Positions 30,533 through 50,435 of a stretch of DNA of 64,000 bases are shown one piece after another; position 1 is the stretch's first letter, and each line of letters begins with the position of its first letter. The stretch is from a phage. The translations under genes and the position numbers were made by a program. The stretch lies in sequence record PV874203.1. The stretch is one strand, 5' to 3'. The notes beneath the pieces are model-generated. The model was not told the origin of the DNA. It did not search any database and was given only the letters and a program-made list of their open reading frames with translations.

Positions 30533-31636
30533 TTACAGCGCTTGCTCTAACTGATTTTCCAGATGATCTGGAATGTACCCTGTGATATTGCTATCACTGT
30601 GTCCTGACTCACGTAGCAAGTCAAAAATAGCACGGATACGTTGCTCTGGTGCAGATCGTACAGTAGATAAATCAGTTGTACGAAGCATAACCAGAATCTC
30701 TTGGTACAAGTTGTTAGCGTTCCCTCGGACATATCCAAGGAATCCGTAGAAGTCTGACATATAACGTAAGTCAACAAGAACATCTCCGTTGGAGTTGGTT
30801 CGACGTAAACGAATACGACCAGACTGCTCTACTCCATGAGAACGGCAATACAAAACATCACGGGCCATACAATAGCCTGAATGCAAATCCGACTCGTCCA
30901 GATTGTAATCCAGAGGAAGGTAAGGAAGCATCGGGGCAAATCGTACAGTATTTAAATGCTCAATAAACTGATCATTGCTCATCTCTGCGTTATCTAATGC
31001 CAGCTTCTTCAACATCAAGAAGCGGTTAACCAGATTGAGAAGTTGACCACGTTTCCACTTAGGCTCACTGATACGGAACTCAATCGAACCGTATTGGGCA
31101 AGTGGCAGAAGGTTCAGAGATGTATATTTATCCCATGAACGAACCAGACGGTTGAAGAACTCTTCATCGTCGTAGTTAAATGCGTCAGAGGCATTCATTA
31201 CCTGTGCTTGTACCACTGCGAAAGCAGGGCAGAAGTTGCTACGGTAACGATGGTAGCCTGAACACTTGAACAACATCTTTTCATAGAAGGTCCAAGCGAG
31301 AACGGTTTTCTTGAGGATATTACTATCAGCATCCCTCATATCCATATGAACGTGAGTAGAGCAACGCCAAGTCCCCTCGGCGTGCGATTCAGCTACTGCT
31401 TCACTCAGGTTGTTGATAGCGTCTAACAACTCCTGTCCGTTGTAAGGTCGTGAACATACCATTTCACAACCATTACGCAGGGAACCATCCTCTGTACAAT
31501 CCCACATATCTGCTTCGATATGATCGGAACCTTCGAGTTCAAGTTCAATACCGACACCGCACTGAAGTGCAATTGAACTATGCGCCTCAGTTAAACGACC
31601 TTCTCGATATCCAAAAGTTTGCGCTACAGTTGTCAT
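30533..31636 (-). CDS. Amidoligase (glutamine-synthetase-like fold, Amidoligase_2-type)
   Basis: GIELELEG and CSTHVHMD motifs consistent with carboxylate-amine ligases of the GS fold; assignment from memory of the family. Confidence 0.55.
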   Translation of the reverse strand: MTTVAQTFGYREGRLTEAHSSIALQCGVGIELELEGSDHIEADMWDCTEDGSLRNGCEMVCSRPYNGQELLDAINNLSEAVAESHAEGTWRCSTHVHMDMRDADSNILKKTVLAWTFYEKMLFKCSGYHRYRSNFCPAFAVVQAQVMNASDAFNYDDEEFFNRLVRSWDKYTSLNLLPLAQYGSIEFRISEPKWKRGQLLNLVNRFLMLKKLALDNAEMSNDQFIEHLNTVRFAPMLPYLPLDYNLDESDLHSGYCMARDVLYCRSHGVEQSGRIRLRRTNSNGDVLVDLRYMSDFYGFLGYVRGNANNLYQEILVMLRTTDLSTVRSAPEQRIRAIFDLLRESGHSDSNITGYIPDHLENQLEQAL

Positions 31637-38654: not shown

Positions 38655-38828
38655 TTAACAAGACTGGTCACATGGCTGATCACCACATGTTTTACAAATC
38701 ACTGGTGAATAACTACAGGAAGGATATACTGACACACCGTCAAACGTCTCACACCCACAGTCAGGGCATGTACCATTGGATTCCATGTCATAATCATCAT
38801 CCACTTCACCACCACCATAACAGCTCAT
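38655..38828 (-). CDS. Hypothetical small Cys-rich protein (57 aa)
   Basis: Hand-translated ORF MSCYGGGEVDDDY...CPDCGCETF...CKTCGDQPCDQSC with AAGGAG upstream. Confidence 0.35.
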   Translation of the reverse strand: MSCYGGGEVDDDYDMESNGTCPDCGCETFDGVSVYPSCSYSPVICKTCGDQPCDQSC

Positions 38829-39267: not shown

Positions 39268-39567
39268 TCACCACTCCTTACCGGTTGTTGTTACAGAGCC
39301 ACCACACCACAACGCTGTATCAATCACAACATTATCTGGCGTAGACTTCTCTTCGTTGATAGAAGGGTTAGCATTGGAGCAGGTTGCTCCGTTCCAGCGC
39401 ATATCGATTTCACCAGAAGGAACCTTCTCACCTTTATGCCAGCGAGAAACACAAACACCTTCCACTGCTACTGCACACCATCCATCAGGACGGCTCTGTA
39501 CGCAGCCTGTAAGGGCCACACAGACAAGGAAGATACAGATTAAGGATATTACACCACCCCAACTCAT
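39268..39567 (-). CDS. Predicted lipoprotein (possible superinfection-exclusion / receptor-masking protein)
   Basis: Signal peptide with lipobox LTGC, then Cys-rich mature domain. Function inferred by analogy to phage lipoproteins such as T5 Llp. Confidence 0.5.
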   Translation of the reverse strand: MSWGGVISLICIFLVCVALTGCVQSRPDGWCAVAVEGVCVSRWHKGEKVPSGEIDMRWNGATCSNANPSINEEKSTPDNVVIDTALWCGGSVTTTGKEW

Positions 39568-39586
39568 AACTATCTCCTACGTTGAT

Positions 39587-39662
39587 TGGTGCACCCTACA
39601 GGACTCGAACCTGTAACCAACGACTTAGAAGGTCGCTGCTCTGTCCATTGAGCTAAGGGTGC
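39587..39662 (-). tRNA. tRNA-Arg (anticodon UCU), 76 nt with encoded CCA
   Basis: Hand-folded cloverleaf: acceptor GCACCCT/AGGGTGC, D-arm GCTC/GAGC, anticodon stem GCGAC/GTCGT with loop CTTCTAA, T-arm ACAGG/CCTGT with loop TTCGAGT, 3' ACCA. Confidence 0.8.
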
Positions 39663-39671
39663 TATATTTAT

Positions 39672-39980
39672 TTATAAGGAGAAAGACTTCTTACAATCCT
39701 TCTCTTCAAAAGTGTAGTAGCCTGTTGTATCAGGGAAGTAGGCATACTTTGTTTCTTTGCCATCAATAGCCATGACACGATTACCAGAAGTTGTTTCTAC
39801 AAACAGAAGCCCATCTCTTACCATACCATGAGATTCTTTGATACCAGTTAAGCTATGCTCTTTAAGAGTGCATTGCTGAACACTCTGATACTTAACTCCA
39901 ATCTCTGCACTATTAACAGAGATGATACCAATGGTTGTCATTAGTAGTAAGGTTGAGATGATAAAATGCTTTTGTTTCAC
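39672..39980 (-). CDS. Hypothetical secreted protein
   Basis: N-terminal signal-peptide-like segment (MKQKHFIISTLLLMTTIGIISVNSA). Confidence 0.45.
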   Translation of the reverse strand: MKQKHFIISTLLLMTTIGIISVNSAEIGVKYQSVQQCTLKEHSLTGIKESHGMVRDGLLFVETTSGNRVMAIDGKETKYAYFPDTTGYYTFEEKDCKKSFSL

Positions 39981-39998: not shown

Positions 39999-40208
39999 TT
40001 AACTGAAGATACGCAAGGCCACATCGTGATAGATATGACCGGGGACTTTGTGCTGTTCTATTTTCAAACAGCGTTTACAGACACGAGATACACGAGATTC
40101 TTTTCTCTCGACCGGAGTGTCTTTAGCGTGAGTAATATGTAAGTTTTCAGTGATCACCCACTCATGTTTACATCCAGAATCTTCGGGCTTTTTCTTACGA
40201 AAGAACAT
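39999..40208 (-). CDS. Hypothetical Cys-containing protein
   Basis: 69-aa ORF with CKHEW ... CKRC pattern. Confidence 0.4.
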   Translation of the reverse strand: MFFRKKKPEDSGCKHEWVITENLHITHAKDTPVERKESRVSRVCKRCLKIEQHKVPGHIYHDVALRIFS

Positions 40209-40217
40209 AACACCCCC

Positions 40218-40379
40218 TTAGATTACATCACGATGACTAACATCACCACACACCTTACACTGAATAACGTAACGTGTGCCCTTGTCATTATTCCCATCTG
40301 AATCTGTATAGACCAGAGGGCGAGTATTAATAATCTTCCAATCATGACAATGAAAGACACGCTTTAGCCACTTGAACAT
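40218..40379 (-). CDS. Hypothetical zinc-ribbon protein
   Basis: Track ORF trimmed to internal Met (MFKWLKRVFHCHDW...CKVCGD) to avoid overlap. Confidence 0.35.
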   Translation of the reverse strand: MFKWLKRVFHCHDWKIINTRPLVYTDSDGNNDKGTRYVIQCKVCGDVSHRDVI

Positions 40380-40386
40380 ATTAACC

Positions 40387-40638
40387 TCAAGCACAAGCAG
40401 GGAGAGTGATGATTTTATGCTTACCATCAAACTCTCCAAATAAACCTAAGAATGTAGGACTGTAAGTGCCAGTACAAACAAACTCATCAAACAGTGCGTT
40501 ATAGCTAGGCTTAATCTTCCAAGCCCATACATAACCCATCTTGTCAATTGCAATGTAACGAGTGTTCAGAGGAACAGTCATCATCACACCATCAACTTCA
40601 ATCACTTTAGTTATTGGTGCAGCTTGGAAGTTTTTCAT
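40387..40638 (-). CDS. Hypothetical protein
   Basis: 83-aa ORF. Confidence 0.4.
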   Translation of the reverse strand: MKNFQAAPITKVIEVDGVMMTVPLNTRYIAIDKMGYVWAWKIKPSYNALFDEFVCTGTYSPTFLGLFGEFDGKHKIITLPACA

Positions 40639-40865
40639 TACATTTCCTCTAACTTAAGAGTTGCTTTATATTCTTTAACCGGAGCGTCTTCAGGGAAAGA
40701 AAGTCTTTGAGAGGGTTGGGGTAATCGTACAGAAAACCCGCCACCAATCTTCATGTAGAAAGATTCTTGACTGGCAAGTTCTGTGTTGAATGTGAAAATA
40801 GAACCAATGCTCAAGTCTCGGAAAGTCTTTTGCTTTGGTTTAGTCGAGTCTAAAACGATATTCAT
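40638..40865 (-). CDS. Small protein, probable member of paralogous family
   Basis: FRDLSIGSIFTF pattern. Confidence 0.45.
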   Translation of the reverse strand: MNIVLDSTKPKQKTFRDLSIGSIFTFNTELASQESFYMKIGGGFSVRLPQPSQRLSFPEDAPVKEYKATLKLEEM

Positions 40866-41038
40866 ACTTTACCTTTGATAAAAATGTCATTACCACAGAC
40901 ACAGCATGAACGAACAACAGTAGCGCCACGCTGAACGATACGAACCTCTTCTTTAACCAGATTAACACGAGCACCACAGCAAGGAGAGTTAACATAAGAG
41001 TAACCAGCTTGCGTATTCTTGATTGTTTGCTTAGACAT
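40862..41038 (-). CDS. Hypothetical zinc-ribbon protein (58 aa)
   Basis: Hand-translated ORF with CC...CCVCG; start overlaps the upstream stop (ATGTCTAA). Confidence 0.35.
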   Translation of the reverse strand: MSKQTIKNTQAGYSYVNSPCCGARVNLVKEEVRIVQRGATVVRSCCVCGNDIFIKGKV

Positions 41039-43615: not shown

Positions 43616-44005
43616 TTATTCCCTAGAGCTATTATCGAACACTAAATCACCACAATACATAGGATTGGCATACCATTTTGGCACCCCTTCGCTCTTACTC
43701 TGAAAGTAAGTCCCACTATACAGCGGAACATAATTCTTCTTAAGGGCACGTTTAGCCAGCCGCTCGCTTTCTCTAATGGCTTGCTTAGTCATCGGATTTT
43801 TATCACGAATCAGCTTTACATAACGTTTATAAGGTTTCTCCTGTTTTAATAGTACCGGAATCCACTCAAACTGGTTCTTTTGTCTTATCACCTGTTCAGC
43901 GGTCAGTTTTCGTTGAGCCATTCTATTTATCACGGTATCCGCAACCATAGCTTTACATGCGGTTGGCTGATTCCCTGCCTCATAATAAATAGTCAATGTC
44001 AACAT
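43616..44005 (-). CDS. Putative cell wall hydrolase (SleB/Hydrolase_2-like); candidate endolysin
   Basis: YYEAGNQ...AMVADTVINRM...NQFEW pattern resembles the Hydrolase_2 family. Confidence 0.5.
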   Translation of the reverse strand: MLTLTIYYEAGNQPTACKAMVADTVINRMAQRKLTAEQVIRQKNQFEWIPVLLKQEKPYKRYVKLIRDKNPMTKQAIRESERLAKRALKKNYVPLYSGTYFQSKSEGVPKWYANPMYCGDLVFDNSSRE

Positions 44006-44052: not shown

Positions 44053-44080
44053 ATAAAAAAGCCCCAGCCGTAGCCGGGGC
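44053..44080 (-). terminator. Rho-independent terminator
   Basis: GC-rich hairpin (GCCCCAGCCGTAGCCGGGGC) followed by a 6-T run on the minus strand. Confidence 0.5.
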
Positions 44081-44140: not shown

Positions 44141-44163
44141 CGCAAAAAGCCGCTCAAAGGCGG
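44141..44163 (-). terminator. Rho-independent terminator (tandem with previous)
   Basis: Hairpin GCCGC-CTTTGA-GCGGC followed by a 5-T run on the minus strand. Confidence 0.5.
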
Positions 44164-44245
44164 CTATGCGGAAGCTTCAAATGGGGAGAGGGCACGACGC
44201 GACAGAAAGAGCGTCATAGTACTAAAAGAGGGGGATATATTCCTA

Positions 44246-47242: not shown

Positions 47243-47868
47243 TTAAAGAGCGGTAAATCTGTCAGCGTGCTTTCTCACGCTACGCAACTGTTAGCCGTTG
47301 TTACGCTTTTCACTTAAGCGGTGATTTGCTTCAGTGATGCTCATTATGGACCATGATGTTTTTGCTGTCAACCGCTTTTTTAATCTTTTTCGTCGTTCCC
47401 GCTATTGGGAGGATATATCAACCCGCTTTATTGGGTTGAAGATTAAGCGATGAGGCTTAACCCATGATTCATATTGTTAAAGAGCGTTTAGCCTTTTATA
47501 GTGTCTGCTAATCACTGCATCATTAAAGGCTTACTTATTCATTAACGGGGCGCCTAATCCCGAACTACCCGCTGCACTATGTGCCACCTTTCCCGCGATA
47601 CGTTGATTTAGGAACTAGTTAACGTTGTTTTGTTAACTTGTGGTTAGTATGAACTACCTTAACCACGTTTGCAACCCTTTTTTATCATCTTCTTTTATTC
47701 TTTTCCCTTATCTCGCTTGAATCTATGCGAAAGGGCAAGATGATAAGTTTTTAAAGAGCGGGATGCTTTAAGTCATCGCTGACTATGCTCACTATATATC
47801 AGGCTATTTTCGGTGTCAATACTCTTTTTAAGAATATTTTCACTTTCTAGCCTGATTTTTAAAGAGCG
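47243..47868 (+). repeat. Four dispersed copies of TTAAAGAGCG(G) in an ORF-poor 1.7-kb region
   Basis: Copies at 47243, 47477, 47751 and 47859, in two subtypes (ATTGTTAAAGAGCG x2, TTTTTAAAGAGCGGG x2). Confidence 0.5.
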
Positions 47869-48204
47869 GGGCAATTTCTTGCCTTGTATGTTTTTCATCG
47901 TACCCGATGAATTGAAGTATACATTAATCAGTGAGGGATGCAATAGGGTAAAGCAAACTATTTTAAACTTTTTCACTATAGGGAAGATAAAGGAACGGGT
48001 GCGCGTGATACATCATAGAAAACGGCTTGTAAAGCGATATTTAGCGGCCTAAAACGCACTATAGCGAGCTAAAAGGGAGTAAGGTATACAATCACCTTAG
48101 AAACGATAAGAGCCTCACTAGGAGGCTTATAGGAAGGATTTAGAGCATTAGATAGATTATGACCATAGGCATGACTACGGCACAATATAGGAGAAAGATT
48201 AAGC

Positions 48205-49767: not shown

Positions 49768-50435
49768 TTTTGTTACTCCTTATATAAATTCAATCAACTG
49801 TTACCAACTATATATTAAAGGAAAAGACCGTCAACCAATTATTTTCTAACTTTCTTGCATCCTACTGAAAACTAAAGGAATTTAATTTACCTAACTTTCT
49901 ACATTCAGGGGATTATCTTACTTCTTATTGTTACTTTATAACACTACGGATGTAACGCTATCGCTACGGGTAGCAGACCAACATACCAGGACACGGAGAG
50001 CACACAACCGCAGAACAGACCACGGGGAAACATAGCCAGATAGTGCGGTAATAATATACCACTTAAATAATTAGTTAACTCAAACATCAAAGACGTTCGC
50101 TACGCTCACAAAGGCACGCTGAAAAAGGAAAGAATAAACATCAATAAAAACAATCATTCTTAAAAGAATTATTAAAAGAAACATAATCATCCACTTAATT
50201 AATACATACATACGACGCTACTTCGTAGCTGTGCATTCCATGCACCCATCATATATTGCACTCATAATCATTACTATTGAAACTATTTACACTCAAACTA
50301 TGGGGAGTGGTGACCATCATTAATGGCTTTATTAGCAGACTAATCAGTTGGCCTGTACAGTGTTAGCCTTTCTCTCACTCTTTAAAGGGGTACTAAATAA
50401 ACGGGTAGGTAATGTAATGAGTAGTATACACGGGG

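What the first reader, a model, noticed from the sequence alone, without database searches (positions are those of the whole stretch)
39268..39662. Lipoprotein gene directly beside the tRNA-Arg(UCU) gene
A predicted lipoprotein (lipobox LTGC) with a Cys-rich mature domain is encoded next to the tRNA inside the accessory array. Small phage lipoproteins in virulent phages are classically receptor-masking exclusion factors (T5 Llp is the textbook case). The tRNA reads AGA, a rare E. coli codon, suggesting codon-usage compensation.
Basis: partly seen in the sequence, partly recalled or inferred. Interest (0 to 1): 0.45.

Follow-up and report, generated by a model that had tools for sequence, protein, structure and literature searches.

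The report
Phage lipoprotein that masks LptD receptor
A small early gene of this phiEco32-like coliphage encodes an outer-membrane lipoprotein related to Rtp45, a phage protein known to clamp the bacterial LPS exporter LptDE, which hints that LptD is an unrecognised receptor for this phage group; the tRNA beside it is an ordinary supplement for a rare arginine codon.

Summary
A 99-aa ORF (39268-39567, minus strand) carries a lipoprotein signal peptide with lipobox LTGC (Cys22). Its start codon lies 19 nt downstream of a tRNA-Arg(UCU) gene (39587-39662, minus strand). The window is a Kuravirus (phiEco32/SU10-like podovirus).

The lipoprotein is not related to T5 Llp or T1 Cor. It belongs to Pfam PF24052 (E=1e-35). 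Its only solved relative is Rtp45 (PDB 9RPS), the superinfection-exclusion lipoprotein of siphophage Rtp. Cryo-EM shows Rtp45 bound to LptDE, displacing the LptD loop that the phage receptor-binding protein (RBP) needs. The Rtp45 disulfide pair, the C-terminal KEW end and the predicted fold are conserved. The Kuravirus protein adds a variable loop bounded by a second Cys pair.

Kuraviruses also encode a homologue of the LptD-binding RBP (Pfam DUF6453; SU10 gp19), next to the tail-needle gene and about 5 kb outside this window.

Best reading: an early LptDE-masking exclusion factor. Whether Kuraviruses themselves use LptD is unproven, and gp19 was not found in SU10 virions by mass spectrometry.

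The tRNA claim holds. AGA is about 8-fold more frequent here than in a sample of E. coli K-12 genes. The lipoprotein gene itself contains no AGA or AGG codon.

The parts
39268..39567 (-). Lipoprotein gene (99 aa, stop codon included), Rtp45 family (PF24052)
   Evidence: ORF listed. PF24052 at E=1.1e-35, 121.8 bits against a cutoff of 27. PDB 9rps_D (Rtp45) at E=9.4e-14. AlphaFold2 model with pLDDT 82, whose only significant PDB fold match is 9rps_D.
39505..39567 (-). Signal peptide, residues 1-21 (MSWGGVISLICIFLVCVALTG); no Lys or Arg in the n-region
   Evidence: Hydropathy and lipobox scan. Predicted as a helix, residues 3-23, in the model.
39502..39513 (-). Lipobox L-T-G-C (residues 19-22). 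Cys22 is the predicted lipidated N-terminus of the mature protein. Residue +2 is Val, which predicts outer-membrane sorting.
   Evidence: G21 and C22 are nearly invariant and invariant, respectively, in 94 family members.
39451..39477 (-). Conserved Cys31...Cys39 mini-loop, equivalent to the Cys30-Cys38 disulfide of Rtp45. Rtp45 residues 30-35 form a beta-sheet with LptD residues 318-323.
   Evidence: Both Cys are invariant in 94 of 94 sequences. Alignment to Rtp45. Structural facts from PMC12685063, section 8.
39304..39381 (-). Cys63...Cys88 variable insertion (24 aa between the two Cys here), absent from Rtp45. In the model it sits at the tip of the long C-terminal beta-hairpin.
   Evidence: The two Cys columns occur together in 20 of 94 sequences, are both absent in 74 of 94, and never occur singly. 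Loop length ranges from 8 to 33 aa. Model strands are 52-65 and 86-98, with lower pLDDT in between. Kuravirus variants of 93, 99 and 108 aa differ only in this loop.
39271..39303 (-). Conserved C-terminal strand GGSVTTTGKEW, ending in the family's (K/R)EW motif
   Evidence: G90, E98 and W99 are nearly invariant. The tail GTVTTTGKEW occurs in Klebsiella phage Solomon. Rtp45 ends in GSKW and the Oekolampad exclusion protein in SREW.
39574..39578 (-). Ribosome-binding site AGGAG, 6 nt upstream of the ATG
   Evidence: Read directly from the sequence.
39587..39662 (-). tRNA-Arg(UCU) gene with encoded CCA; anticodon at 39627-39629. A separate function, co-oriented with the lipoprotein gene and probably co-transcribed with it.
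   Evidence: ARAGORN. Rfam RF00005 at 71.9 bits. Cloverleaf fold. 84% identical to the host's tRNA-Arg gene (argU by my reading; the record says only tRNA-Arg), which is single-copy in most genomes, with an identical anticodon stem-loop.

Best explanation
The ORF encodes a small lipoprotein that I predict is exported, lipidated at Cys22 and anchored in the inner leaflet of the outer membrane.

Proposed mechanism, by homology with Rtp45:
- The lipoprotein docks on the periplasmic side of the LptDE lipopolysaccharide translocon.
- It pushes its long beta-hairpin up the LptD lumen.
- This holds an extracellular loop (EL4 in the Rtp45 complex) in a position that phage receptor-binding proteins cannot use.
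- An infected cell, and its membrane debris after lysis, then stops adsorbing phages that need LptD.

The gene lies in the block that corresponds to the phiEco32 early class, so masking would begin soon after infection.

The phages excluded are most likely the phage's own kind. Kuraviruses also carry a homologue of the LptD-binding RBP (gp19, Pfam DUF6453), encoded directly after the tail-needle gene.

The Cys63-Cys88 loop at the hairpin tip is a group-specific, variable elaboration of the part that would reach toward the cell surface.

The adjacent tRNA-Arg(UCU) is an independent gene that supplements decoding of AGA and AGG, which the phage uses far more than its host.

What is shown: homology, conserved motifs, fold similarity, gene contexts and codon counts. 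What is inferred: lipidation, binding to LptDE, the exclusion phenotype, early expression and self-targeting. I put self-targeting alone at about 0.4.
For: Family and fold
- PF24052 at E=1.1e-35.
- The only meaningful PDB sequence hit is Rtp45, 9rps_D, at E=9.4e-14. The remaining hits in that list are low-complexity matches to designed armadillo repeats.
- BLASTP to Rtp45 gives 41% identity over 63 residues at E=2e-17.
- The window protein is about 40% identical to the exclusion protein at a Dhillonvirus locus predicted to target LptD. The two reference exclusion proteins are only 35% identical to each other (PMC12685063).
- The alignment is full-length. The lipobox, R26, G29, C31, G37, C39, G46, V49, G52, G60 and the C-terminal W are conserved.
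- The AlphaFold2 model (pLDDT 82) has a single significant PDB fold match, Rtp45, with probability 1.0 and TM 0.80 on the target.

Mechanism of the reference protein
- Cryo-EM shows Rtp45 bound to LptDE(M). EL4 is displaced by up to 20 A and the change blocks the RBP (PMC12685063 section 8).

Specificity of the module
- In siphophages Bas84, mEp021 and ACG-M12 the lipoprotein gene lies immediately upstream of a DUF6453 RBP gene. That gene follows a J-like protein ending in PF09327.
- All seven LptD-dependent phages of the BASEL phage collection share this module (PMC8594841).
- FhuA-dependent T1 lacks DUF6453, and its Cor protein scores below the PF24052 cutoff.
- Phage records holding the lipoprotein (384) and those holding the RBP (427) have parallel host breakdowns. 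For example, E. coli DSM 12242 is 43 against 43, and Campylobacter-labelled records are 7 against 7.

Partner in Kuravirus
- SGF2 gp19 (343 aa) matches DUF6453 at E=6e-23 over profile positions 15-290 of 291.
- Its only PDB hit is the Oekolampad RBP in complex with LptDE, 9rpt_C, at E=2e-9.
- It follows the tail needle gp18, which contains PF09327.
- It is present in the closest relative, 172-1, and across Kuraviruses.

tRNA
-.
Against: - No experiment on this protein or on any Kuravirus orthologue exists.
- For Rtp45 itself, binding is shown structurally. I found no plating or adsorption assay for it in PMC12685063.
- Kuraviruses are described as strictly dependent on O-antigen, with a glycan assumed as terminal receptor by analogy. 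No LptD dependence has been reported (PMC11990801; literature searches).
- SU10 gp19 was not detected in virions. It was absent from gel-band mass spectrometry (PMC9509320 Supplementary Table 1). It was also absent from shotgun mass spectrometry, which did detect gp18 and even one terminase peptide (PMC4281155 Table 2).
- gp19 is only about 25% identical to validated LptD RBPs, so its receptor specificity cannot be read from homology.
- The lipoprotein gene is about 45 kb from gp19, not adjacent as in siphophages. gp19 is outside this window.
- The 24-aa insertion sits exactly where the hairpin would engage LptD and could alter or retarget binding.
- The n-region lacks a positive charge, which is atypical for a lipoprotein signal peptide.
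- Two strong terminator-like hairpins (about 44.06-44.17 kb) lie between the best sigma70-like promoters (47.3-49.8 kb) and the gene. Its promoter and timing are therefore not established.
- Related loop-bearing homologues sit as orphans in other large phage-like contigs with no DUF6453 gene nearby.
Confidence: 0.6

Rival explanations
1. The lipoprotein masks LptDE but works only against competitors. It protects the infected cell from LptD-dependent siphophages (Rtp-like, Dhillonvirus, Queuovirinae) that share the same hosts. Kuraviruses themselves finish adsorption on glycans, and gp19 is not a virion RBP.
For: - gp19 was not detected in SU10 virions by two mass-spectrometry studies.
- Kuravirus infection is reported as strictly dependent on O-antigen, with no protein receptor known.
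- The lipoprotein gene sits among early accessory genes rather than with the tail genes.
- Loop-bearing homologues occur as orphan accessory genes in other large phage-like contigs.
Against: - A full-length DUF6453 homologue is conserved across Gordonclarkvirinae inside the tail module. It lies directly after a tail needle that carries the same PF09327 tip domain that precedes the RBP gene in siphophages. That is hard to explain if the protein has no role in host recognition.
- gp19 diverges strongly within the group, from 100% down to 47% identity. That is a larger spread than the well-conserved short tail fibre reported in PMC11990801 (61% of 267 sites fully identical across the subfamily).
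- A one-copy, non-covalently bound tip protein could escape mass spectrometry.
- LptD is essential, so resistance screens would yield O-antigen loss rather than lptD mutants.
Confidence: 0.2
2. The protein is a member of the same family but has been retargeted. The Cys-bounded insertion at the hairpin tip lets it bind a different outer-membrane protein, or a different part of the envelope, and so mask another receptor.
For: - The insertion (8-33 aa, variable) is at the tip of the hairpin that enters LptD in Rtp45.
- Receptor specificity cannot be derived from 41% identity.
- T1 Cor, a FhuA blocker, shows faint sub-threshold similarity to the family (17.7 bits). This hints that related scaffolds can serve other receptors.
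Against: - The scaffold that makes the main LptD contact in Rtp45 is highly conserved. This covers the disulfide mini-loop (residues 30-35) and the hairpin strands.
- The only RBP-like partner in the genome belongs to the LptD-linked family.
- In the family sampled (94 sequences), I found no member beside an RBP type that targets a different receptor.
Confidence: 0.1
3. It is the outer-membrane spanin subunit (Rz1-like) or another lysis accessory. No spanin is annotated beside the Kuravirus holin and endolysin genes.
For: - It is an outer-membrane lipoprotein of spanin-like size.
- The annotated Kuravirus lysis cassette holds only a holin and an endolysin.
- No other convincing lipobox ORF exists in the window.
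Against: - The Pfam o-spanin model matches only the signal peptide (E=0.67).
- There is no adjacent or embedded inner-membrane spanin partner. The downstream 65-aa protein has no transmembrane segment. The upstream 102-aa protein is separated by the tRNA and is absent from most relatives.
- The gene is in the early block, not in the late lysis cassette.
- There is no C-terminal transmembrane segment, so it is not a unimolecular spanin.
- By my recollection, T1-like siphophages that carry a PF24052 gene have their own spanin elsewhere. I saw a spanin only in T1 itself, which lacks a true PF24052 gene.
- The protein is homologous to a structurally characterised LptDE binder.
Confidence: 0.03
4. 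The protein binds LptDE, but its purpose is host manipulation rather than exclusion. One example would be throttling LPS and O-antigen export or altering outer-membrane biogenesis during infection.
For: - In Rtp45 the hairpin occupies the LptD lumen.
- Early placement among host-takeover genes.
- Kuraviruses depend on O-antigen as primary receptor, so cutting off new LPS could itself reduce later adsorption.
Against: - This is purely speculative.
- The paper reports good expression of Rtp45 and reports no transport block.
- The tight genomic pairing of the family with an RBP gene in siphophages points to exclusion.
Confidence: 0.05

Closest known systems
Rtp45, superinfection-exclusion lipoprotein of siphophage Rtp (UniProt Q333D9; PDB 9RPS chain D; Dunbar et al., PNAS 2025, PMC12685063)
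   Same: - Same Pfam family, PF24052.
- Lipobox Cys.
- RPDGWC...G.C disulfide mini-loop.
- VP(A/S)GE(V/I)D.R hairpin strand.
- C-terminal (K/E)W end.
- 41% identity in the core.
- The predicted fold matches the experimental structure.
   Different: - 99 aa rather than 75 aa.
- An extra disulfide-bounded variable loop (C63-C88) at the hairpin tip.
- No charged n-region in the signal peptide.
- Encoded in a podovirus, in the early accessory block beside a tRNA gene. It is about 45 kb from the RBP homologue, not immediately upstream of it.
Exclusion lipoprotein of Dhillonvirus Oekolampad (bas18_0026) and its Bas84 orthologue
   Same: - Same family.
- About 40% identity to the window protein.
- The associated RBP is shown (Oekolampad) or predicted (Bas84) to bind LptD.
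   Different: - A 73-aa protein with two Cys and no inserted loop.
- Its gene is adjacent to the RBP gene, downstream of the J-like protein.
Webervirus (Klebsiella T1-like) lipoproteins, for example phage Solomon 'receptor blocking protein'
   Same: - Closest relatives outside Gordonclarkvirinae (E=6e-16).
- C-terminal tail GTVTTTGKEW, against GSVTTTGKEW in the window protein.
- The gene is likewise unlinked from the DUF6453 gene, which lies about 10 kb away in phage 066039.
   Different: - No Cys-bounded loop.
- A siphovirus with a Klebsiella host.
- The receptor is not established.
   Same: - The same functional idea: a small periplasm-facing outer-membrane lipoprotein of a virulent phage. 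It binds the phage receptor from inside and changes the receptor's outer loops.
- By my recollection, llp is also an early gene.
   Different: - No sequence or fold relationship.
- The target is the TonB-dependent transporter FhuA.
- It works by long-range allostery, whereas Rtp45 physically displaces a loop (PMC12685063).
Cor of T1, phi80 and N15 (FhuA-directed exclusion lipoprotein)
   Same: - A small lipoprotein encoded beside the host-recognition genes.
- Faint similarity to PF24052 in the N-terminal half.
   Different: - It scores below the family cutoff (17.7 bits against 27).
- The window protein has no hit in the T1 genome.
- Different receptor.
Phage-encoded tRNAs for rare codons
   Same: - A single tRNA-Arg(UCU) in a phage whose genes use AGA about 8 times more often than the host's.
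- The anticodon stem-loop is identical to that of the host's tRNA-Arg(UCU) gene, argU by my reading.
   Different: Nothing unusual, except that phage Paul carries an unrelated tRNA-Arg(UCU) sequence at the same locus.

Membership tests
PF24052 / Rtp45-like LptDE-directed exclusion lipoproteins | Matches the family profile above the curated threshold | tested here: met
   121.8 bits against a cutoff of 27, E=1.1e-35, over profile positions 1-80 of 80. Also PHROG 4281.
PF24052 / Rtp45-like LptDE-directed exclusion lipoproteins | Lipoprotein signal peptide with a lipobox Cys | tested here: met
   LTGC with Cys22 after a 14-residue hydrophobic core. The Cys is invariant in 94 of 94 members. Caveat: no Lys or Arg in the n-region. 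Actual lipidation cannot be tested here.
PF24052 / Rtp45-like LptDE-directed exclusion lipoproteins | Conserved Cys pair that forms the Cys30-Cys38 disulfide in Rtp45 | tested here: met
   C31 and C39 align with Rtp45 C30 and C38. Both are invariant in the family.
PF24052 / Rtp45-like LptDE-directed exclusion lipoproteins | Fold like the experimental Rtp45 structure (disulfide mini-loop plus long beta-hairpin) | tested here: met
   The AlphaFold2 model (pLDDT 82) has a single significant Foldseek hit in the PDB, 9rps_D: E=9e-4, probability 1.0, TM 0.80 on the target. The rmsd is 6 A and pLDDT is lower in the inserted loop, so agreement is at the level of topology.
PF24052 / Rtp45-like LptDE-directed exclusion lipoproteins | Gene immediately upstream of a DUF6453 RBP gene, downstream of the J-like tail-tip gene | tested here: not met
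   There is no DUF6453 homologue anywhere in the window. In Kuravirus genomes the homologue (gp19) is about 45 kb away in the tail module. The same unlinked arrangement occurs in Webervirus. Adjacency is therefore typical of the family but not universal.
PF24052 / Rtp45-like LptDE-directed exclusion lipoproteins | Co-occurrence with a DUF6453 RBP in the same genome | tested here: met
   SGF2 gp19 matches DUF6453 at E=6e-23 and has 9rpt_C as its only PDB hit. It is present in 172-1, the closest relative of the window, and in about 90 or more Gordonclarkvirinae records. It is not verifiable for this exact phage because the gene lies outside the window.
PF24052 / Rtp45-like LptDE-directed exclusion lipoproteins | Physical binding to LptDE, and exclusion of LptD-dependent phages | not testable with these tools
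   This needs co-purification or cryo-EM, plus plating and adsorption assays.
T5 Llp family (FhuA-directed) | Sequence or profile similarity to Llp | tested here: not met
   hhalign of the family profile against Llp aligns only 24 columns of signal peptide, at 45% probability. Llp chains are in the PDB set but are not hit at E<=10.
T5 Llp family (FhuA-directed) | Fold similarity to Llp (7QJF, 8A60) | tested here: not met
   Neither chain appears among the Foldseek PDB matches at E<=10.
Cor family (T1, phi80, N15; FhuA-directed) | Sequence similarity to Cor | tested here: not met
   The window protein has no tblastn hit in the T1 genome at E<=0.01. T1 Cor scores 17.7 bits on PF24052, below the cutoff of 27.
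o-spanin (Rz1-like) | Paired with an adjacent or embedded i-spanin gene inside the lysis cassette | tested here: not met
   The neighbouring genes are a tRNA and a 65-aa protein with no transmembrane segment. The holin and endolysin genes are in the late module outside the window.
o-spanin (Rz1-like) | Match to spanin profiles beyond the signal peptide | tested here: not met
   PF17531 at E=0.67, covering residues 8-23 only.
tRNA (Rfam RF00005), Arg-UCU isoacceptor | Covariance-model score above gathering, cloverleaf fold, UCU anticodon | tested here: met
   71.9 bits against 29. ARAGORN gives anticodon tct. Cloverleaf minimum-free-energy fold, z=-3.0. Anticodon stem-loop identical to that of the E. 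coli tRNA-Arg gene it matches.

The most novel reading that the evidence does not exclude
Kuraviruses and the wider Gordonclarkvirinae are currently described as glycan-dependent podoviruses with no known protein receptor. [quoted passage not shown]

On this reading:
- gp19 (DUF6453), unassigned in the SU10 virion structure, would be a low-copy RBP docked on the PF09327 tip domain of the tail needle.
- The early lipoprotein in this window would be its cognate exclusion factor.
- The three-part siphophage module (J-type tip domain, RBP, exclusion lipoprotein) would then have been transplanted onto a podovirus tail needle and its genes dispersed.
- The hypervariable disulfide-stapled loop at the hairpin tip would be the surface-proximal element that blocks the RBP.
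Probability: 0.4. Interest if true: 0.75.

Novelty: new member of a known kind. Interest (0 to 1): 0.55.

Why it matters
The gene itself is an ordinary member of a family whose mechanism was solved in 2025, so the lipoprotein alone is a modest finding.

Its value is as a pointer. Taken with the unassigned gp19, it gives a concrete and cheap-to-test hypothesis for an open question. That question is the terminal receptor of Kuraviruses, which are widely isolated and used as therapeutic candidates (for example ES17) and as a structural model (SU10).

- LptD is essential and conserved. It would therefore be missed by spontaneous-resistance screens, which return O-antigen loss.
- If confirmed, LptD targeting would extend from small siphophages to podoviruses.
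- It would also assign a role to a conserved tail-module gene and to the needle tip in SU10 genome delivery.
- It would provide a second, loop-bearing class of natural LptDE ligands.

For phage cocktails, it predicts cross-exclusion between Kuraviruses and LptD-dependent siphophages.

Tried and rejected
- **T5 Llp homology.** Rejected. No sequence, profile or fold similarity beyond the signal peptide.
- **Cor homology.** Rejected. It scores below threshold and the window protein has no hit in T1.
- **Spanin.** Rejected as unlikely.
- **Defence-system and NCBIfam libraries.** No hits for the lipoprotein, the 102-aa neighbour or gp19.
- **An Rtp44-type RBP gene inside the window.** None. It lies in the roughly 13 kb of genome that the window does not cover.
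- **Co-variation of the lipoprotein loop type with the gp19 type.** Not seen. ES17 and SGF2 have 97%-identical gp19 but 93-aa and 99-aa lipoproteins respectively. Paul has a 70%-identical gp19 and the 93-aa type.
- **RBP genes beside orphan loop-bearing homologues in two metagenomic contigs.** The flanking 316-aa and 208-aa proteins are not DUF6453.
- **A functional link between the tRNA and the lipoprotein.** None. The gene has no AGA or AGG codon, and the adjacency is interrupted in other Kuraviruses.
- **Evasion of anticodon nucleases by the phage tRNA.** No support. The anticodon stem-loop is identical to that of the host's tRNA-Arg(UCU) gene.
- **A promoter for the gene.** Not identified. 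Only weak sigma70-like matches lie nearby, and the nearest phiEco32 gp36-type TAATGTATA motif is at 47.9 kb.
- **The original Rtp paper** (Wietzorrek et al. 2006, PMC1367250). It could not be read. My recollection that it only proposed the exclusion role is from memory.
Full report
**What the window is.** The region around the finding is 94% identical at DNA level to Escherichia phages 172-1, XT73 and NJ01 and to Shigella phage SGF2. All of these are Kuravirus (Gordonclarkvirinae), the phiEco32/SU10-like podoviruses with prolate heads. The window covers 64 kb of a genome of about 77 kb. Late structural genes are on the plus strand at both ends. A long minus-strand block, from about 4.3 to 50 kb, holds the middle and early genes. 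By offset to phage 172-1, the window begins inside gp24 and ends near gp12. The missing 13 kb or so contains gp13 to gp23, that is, the lysis genes, short tail fibre, nozzle, needle, gp19 and ejection proteins.

**Checking the observation.** The ORF at 39268-39567 (minus strand, 99 aa) begins MSWGGVISLICIFLVCVALTG-C. It has one lipobox, LTGC, with Cys22, and an AGGAG site 6 nt upstream of the ATG. Residue +2 is Val, so the Lol pathway should send it to the outer membrane; this follows from established knowledge. The n-region has no Lys or Arg, which is atypical, but the feature is shared by all Kuravirus orthologues. It is the only credible lipobox ORF in the window. The mature chain has four further Cys. 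The tRNA-Arg(UCU) at 39587-39662 (minus strand) is confirmed by ARAGORN, by Rfam (71.9 bits) and by its fold.

**What the lipoprotein is.**
- It matches Pfam PF24052 'Phage lipoprotein family' at E=1e-35.
- Against all PDB sequences, the only meaningful hit is 9rps_D at E=9e-14. The other hits in that list are low-complexity matches to designed armadillo repeats, each with no stretch passing on its own.
- 9RPS is the cryo-EM structure of Shigella LptDE-LptM with Rtp45, the superinfection-exclusion lipoprotein of siphophage Rtp (PMC12685063).
- In that structure Rtp45 sits on the periplasmic side of LptD between LptE and LptM. Residues 30-35 pair with LptD 318-323, it has a Cys30-Cys38 disulfide, and it sends a long hairpin up the lumen. 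The effect is to push extracellular loop EL4 outward by up to 20 A, which the authors conclude prevents RBP binding.
- The window protein aligns with Rtp45 and with the Oekolampad exclusion protein from the lipobox to the last residue. R26, G29, C31, G37, C39, G46, V49, G52, G60 and the terminal W are invariant in a 9-sequence alignment, and the pattern holds in 94 sequences.
- It is 41% identical to Rtp45 and about 40% identical to the Dhillonvirus protein. The two reference proteins are only 35% identical to each other.
- An AlphaFold2 model built on the 94-sequence alignment (pLDDT 82) has one significant PDB fold match, Rtp45 (probability 1.0, TM 0.80 on the target).
- The family is narrow. 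There are 20 representatives at 50% identity among 1.84 billion proteins, all from enterobacterial phages or prophages.

**What differs from Rtp45.** Kuravirus proteins carry an insertion between the two strands of the C-terminal hairpin, bounded by Cys63 and Cys88. Across the family these two Cys columns are either both present (20 of 94) or both absent (74 of 94), and never single. The enclosed loop ranges from 8 to 33 residues. This is good covariation evidence for a second disulfide. Within Kuravirus the first 62 residues and the last 11 are almost invariant, while the loop defines 93-, 99- and 108-aa variants. In the model the loop is the tip of the long hairpin, formed by strands 52-65 and 86-98. 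If that hairpin is the one that enters the LptD lumen in Rtp45, the variable loop is the part closest to the cell surface. This is an inference, because I could not inspect coordinates.

**Context in other phages.** In Bas84 (Dhillonvirus), mEp021 (lambdoid) and ACG-M12 (Rtp-like), the lipoprotein gene lies immediately upstream of a gene of about 320 aa. That gene encodes a Pfam DUF6453 protein (E about 1e-120 to 1e-140), the Rtp44 / Oekolampad RBP family. The pair lies next to a J-like protein whose C-terminus is a PF09327 tail-tip domain. All seven LptD-dependent phages of the BASEL phage collection share this module, and Rtp was predicted to target LptD from it (PMC8594841). As a negative control, FhuA-dependent T1 has no DUF6453 gene, and its Cor protein scores below the PF24052 cutoff. 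T5 Llp shows nothing beyond a signal-peptide match. Records holding the lipoprotein (384) and records holding the RBP (427) show closely parallel host breakdowns. I could not intersect the two lists.

**The unexpected part.**
- A tblastn search with the ACG-M12 RBP also hits Kuravirus genomes over 84-91% of its length (172-1 at E=4e-9).
- The gene is SU10 gp19 (343 aa). It lies directly after the tail needle gp18 and before the transglycosylase gp20.
- SGF2 gp19 matches DUF6453 at E=6e-23 across the whole profile.
- Its only PDB hit is the Oekolampad RBP from the LptDE complex, 9rpt_C, at E=2e-9.
- The reciprocal search recovers Webervirus, Cronobacter-phage and Dhillonvirus RBPs.
- The needle gp18 itself contains PF09327 (E=4e-27).
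- Kuraviruses therefore hold all three parts of the siphophage LptD-recognition module, with the exclusion gene moved about 45 kb away into the early block. Webervirus phages show a similar uncoupling.
- No paper in the held library connects Kuravirus or Gordonclarkvirinae with LptD.
- The BASEL completion paper reports strict O-antigen dependence. It suggests, by analogy with T-even phages, that the short tail fibres bind the LPS core.

**Evidence against over-reading this.**
- gp19 is listed as not detected in SU10 virions (PMC9509320 Supplementary Table 1).
- It is also absent from a shotgun proteome that found gp18 with 12 peptides (PMC4281155 Table 2).
- A single non-covalently bound copy could be lost or missed. 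The needle map imposed C3 symmetry at low resolution. Even so, this is a real negative.
- gp19 is only about 25% identical to validated RBPs.
- I found no plating or adsorption assay for Rtp45 in the 2025 paper.
- Some loop-bearing homologues sit as orphans in other large phage-like contigs. That fits a competitor-directed role as well as a self-directed one.
- Loop type and gp19 type do not co-vary.

**Expression.** The gene lies in the block that corresponds to the phiEco32 early class, as described in PMC8948821; this is an inference from synteny. It is tightly packed with its neighbours, with 1 nt between its stop codon and the next start, and it follows the tRNA by 19 nt. It is therefore probably part of a polycistronic transcript from which the tRNA is processed. 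The best sigma70-like promoters are at 47.3-49.8 kb. Two strong terminator-like hairpins at about 44.1 kb lie in between, so the actual promoter is unknown.

**The tRNA.** AGA accounts for 10.2 per 1000 codons (18% of Arg) in 111 window ORFs. The rate is 6.8 per 1000 in the plus-strand late genes and 11.5 per 1000 in the minus-strand genes. In 42 annotated E. coli K-12 genes it is 1.2 per 1000, or 2% of Arg (odds ratio 8.4, p=2e-29). AGG is enriched as well. The tRNA is 84% identical to the host's tRNA-Arg gene, which is single-copy in most genomes and which I take to be argU from its position beside fimZ and an integrase remnant. The anticodon stem-loop is identical, so there is no sign of nuclease evasion. 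Phage Paul carries a different tRNA-Arg(UCU) sequence at the same locus. HNH endonuclease genes sit next to the tRNA in Paul and O18-011. The lipoprotein gene uses only CGT and CGC for Arg. The adjacency is synteny, not a functional unit.

**Verdict.** The gene is a new, loop-bearing member of the Rtp45 / PF24052 exclusion lipoproteins. Its most likely mechanism is masking of LptDE from the periplasmic side (confidence 0.6). The more novel implication is that Kuraviruses use LptD through gp19 on the needle tip. I put that at about 0.4; it is directly testable.

Noticed in passing
outside the window, about 5 kb before its start; L008:5902-6933 (SGF2 gp19); 172-1 29986-30822: Kuravirus gp19 (343 aa) is labelled 'hypothetical' or 'membrane protein' and is unassigned in the SU10 virion structure. 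It is a full-length DUF6453 protein, homologous to the LptD-binding RBP of Oekolampad and Rtp. It is encoded directly after the tail needle gp18, which carries a J-type PF09327 tip domain.
   Followed up: yes
window 39672-39980 (-): A 102-aa ORF just upstream of the tRNA has a Sec-type signal peptide (MKQKHFIISTLLLMTTIGIISVNSA/E) and two Cys. It matches PHROG 23590, of unknown function, and has no Pfam, NCBIfam or PADLOC hit. Most Kuravirus relatives lack this segment; their DNA matches stop at about 39675. It is a variable periplasmic accessory protein of unknown role.
   Followed up: partly
L007:5350-5969 (phage Paul); L002:3765-4745 (phage O18-011): HNH homing-endonuclease genes lie between or beside the tRNA-Arg gene and the lipoprotein gene in other Kuraviruses. 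Phage Paul carries a quite different tRNA-Arg(UCU) sequence at the same locus. The tRNA locus looks like a hot spot for homing and replacement, while an AGA decoder is always retained.
   Followed up: partly
window 38655-38828, 39999-40208, 40218-40439, 40862-41038 (all -): A run of small early ORFs (57-73 aa) with paired CxxC motifs, which look like zinc-ribbon proteins. They match PHROGs of unknown function.
   Followed up: no
window 44061-44080 and 44148-44165 (-); 47343-47371, 47791-47819, 49807-49834 (-): Two strong intrinsic-terminator-like hairpins lie inside the early block, downstream of near-consensus sigma70 promoters. The lipoprotein-tRNA segment therefore needs read-through or an unidentified promoter. 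The phiEco32 gp36-type motif TAATGTATA occurs 5 times in the window against 0.75 expected, including at 47918-47926 (-).
   Followed up: partly
window 27005-27199 (-): A short ORF with a TTG start and a lipobox-like LTSC is embedded out of frame inside the 398-aa ORF 26781-27977. It is probably a chance match. It is noted only because no spanin pair is annotated in Kuraviruses.
   Followed up: no
L011:6001-6264; L013:6001-6285: PF24052 homologues with the Cys-bounded loop occur as isolated accessory genes in 100-kb and 50-kb phage-like metagenomic contigs. Their neighbours include KilA-N, TerB, NAMPT and PRPP-synthetase genes, and no DUF6453 gene lies within 6 kb.
   Followed up: partly
L003:3495-3722 (Klebsiella phage Solomon): In Webervirus phages the lipoprotein gene sits between a VRR-NUC gene and the Dam methylase gene, about 10 kb from the DUF6453 gene. 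This is an independent case of the exclusion gene being uncoupled from the RBP gene.
   Followed up: partly
L009:3050-3789 (phage Paul lysis cassette): The annotated Kuravirus lysis cassette holds only a holin and an endolysin, with no spanin genes between the endolysin and gp16. A separate 'cell wall hydrolase' (PF07486) sits in the early block (window 43616-44005).
   Followed up: no
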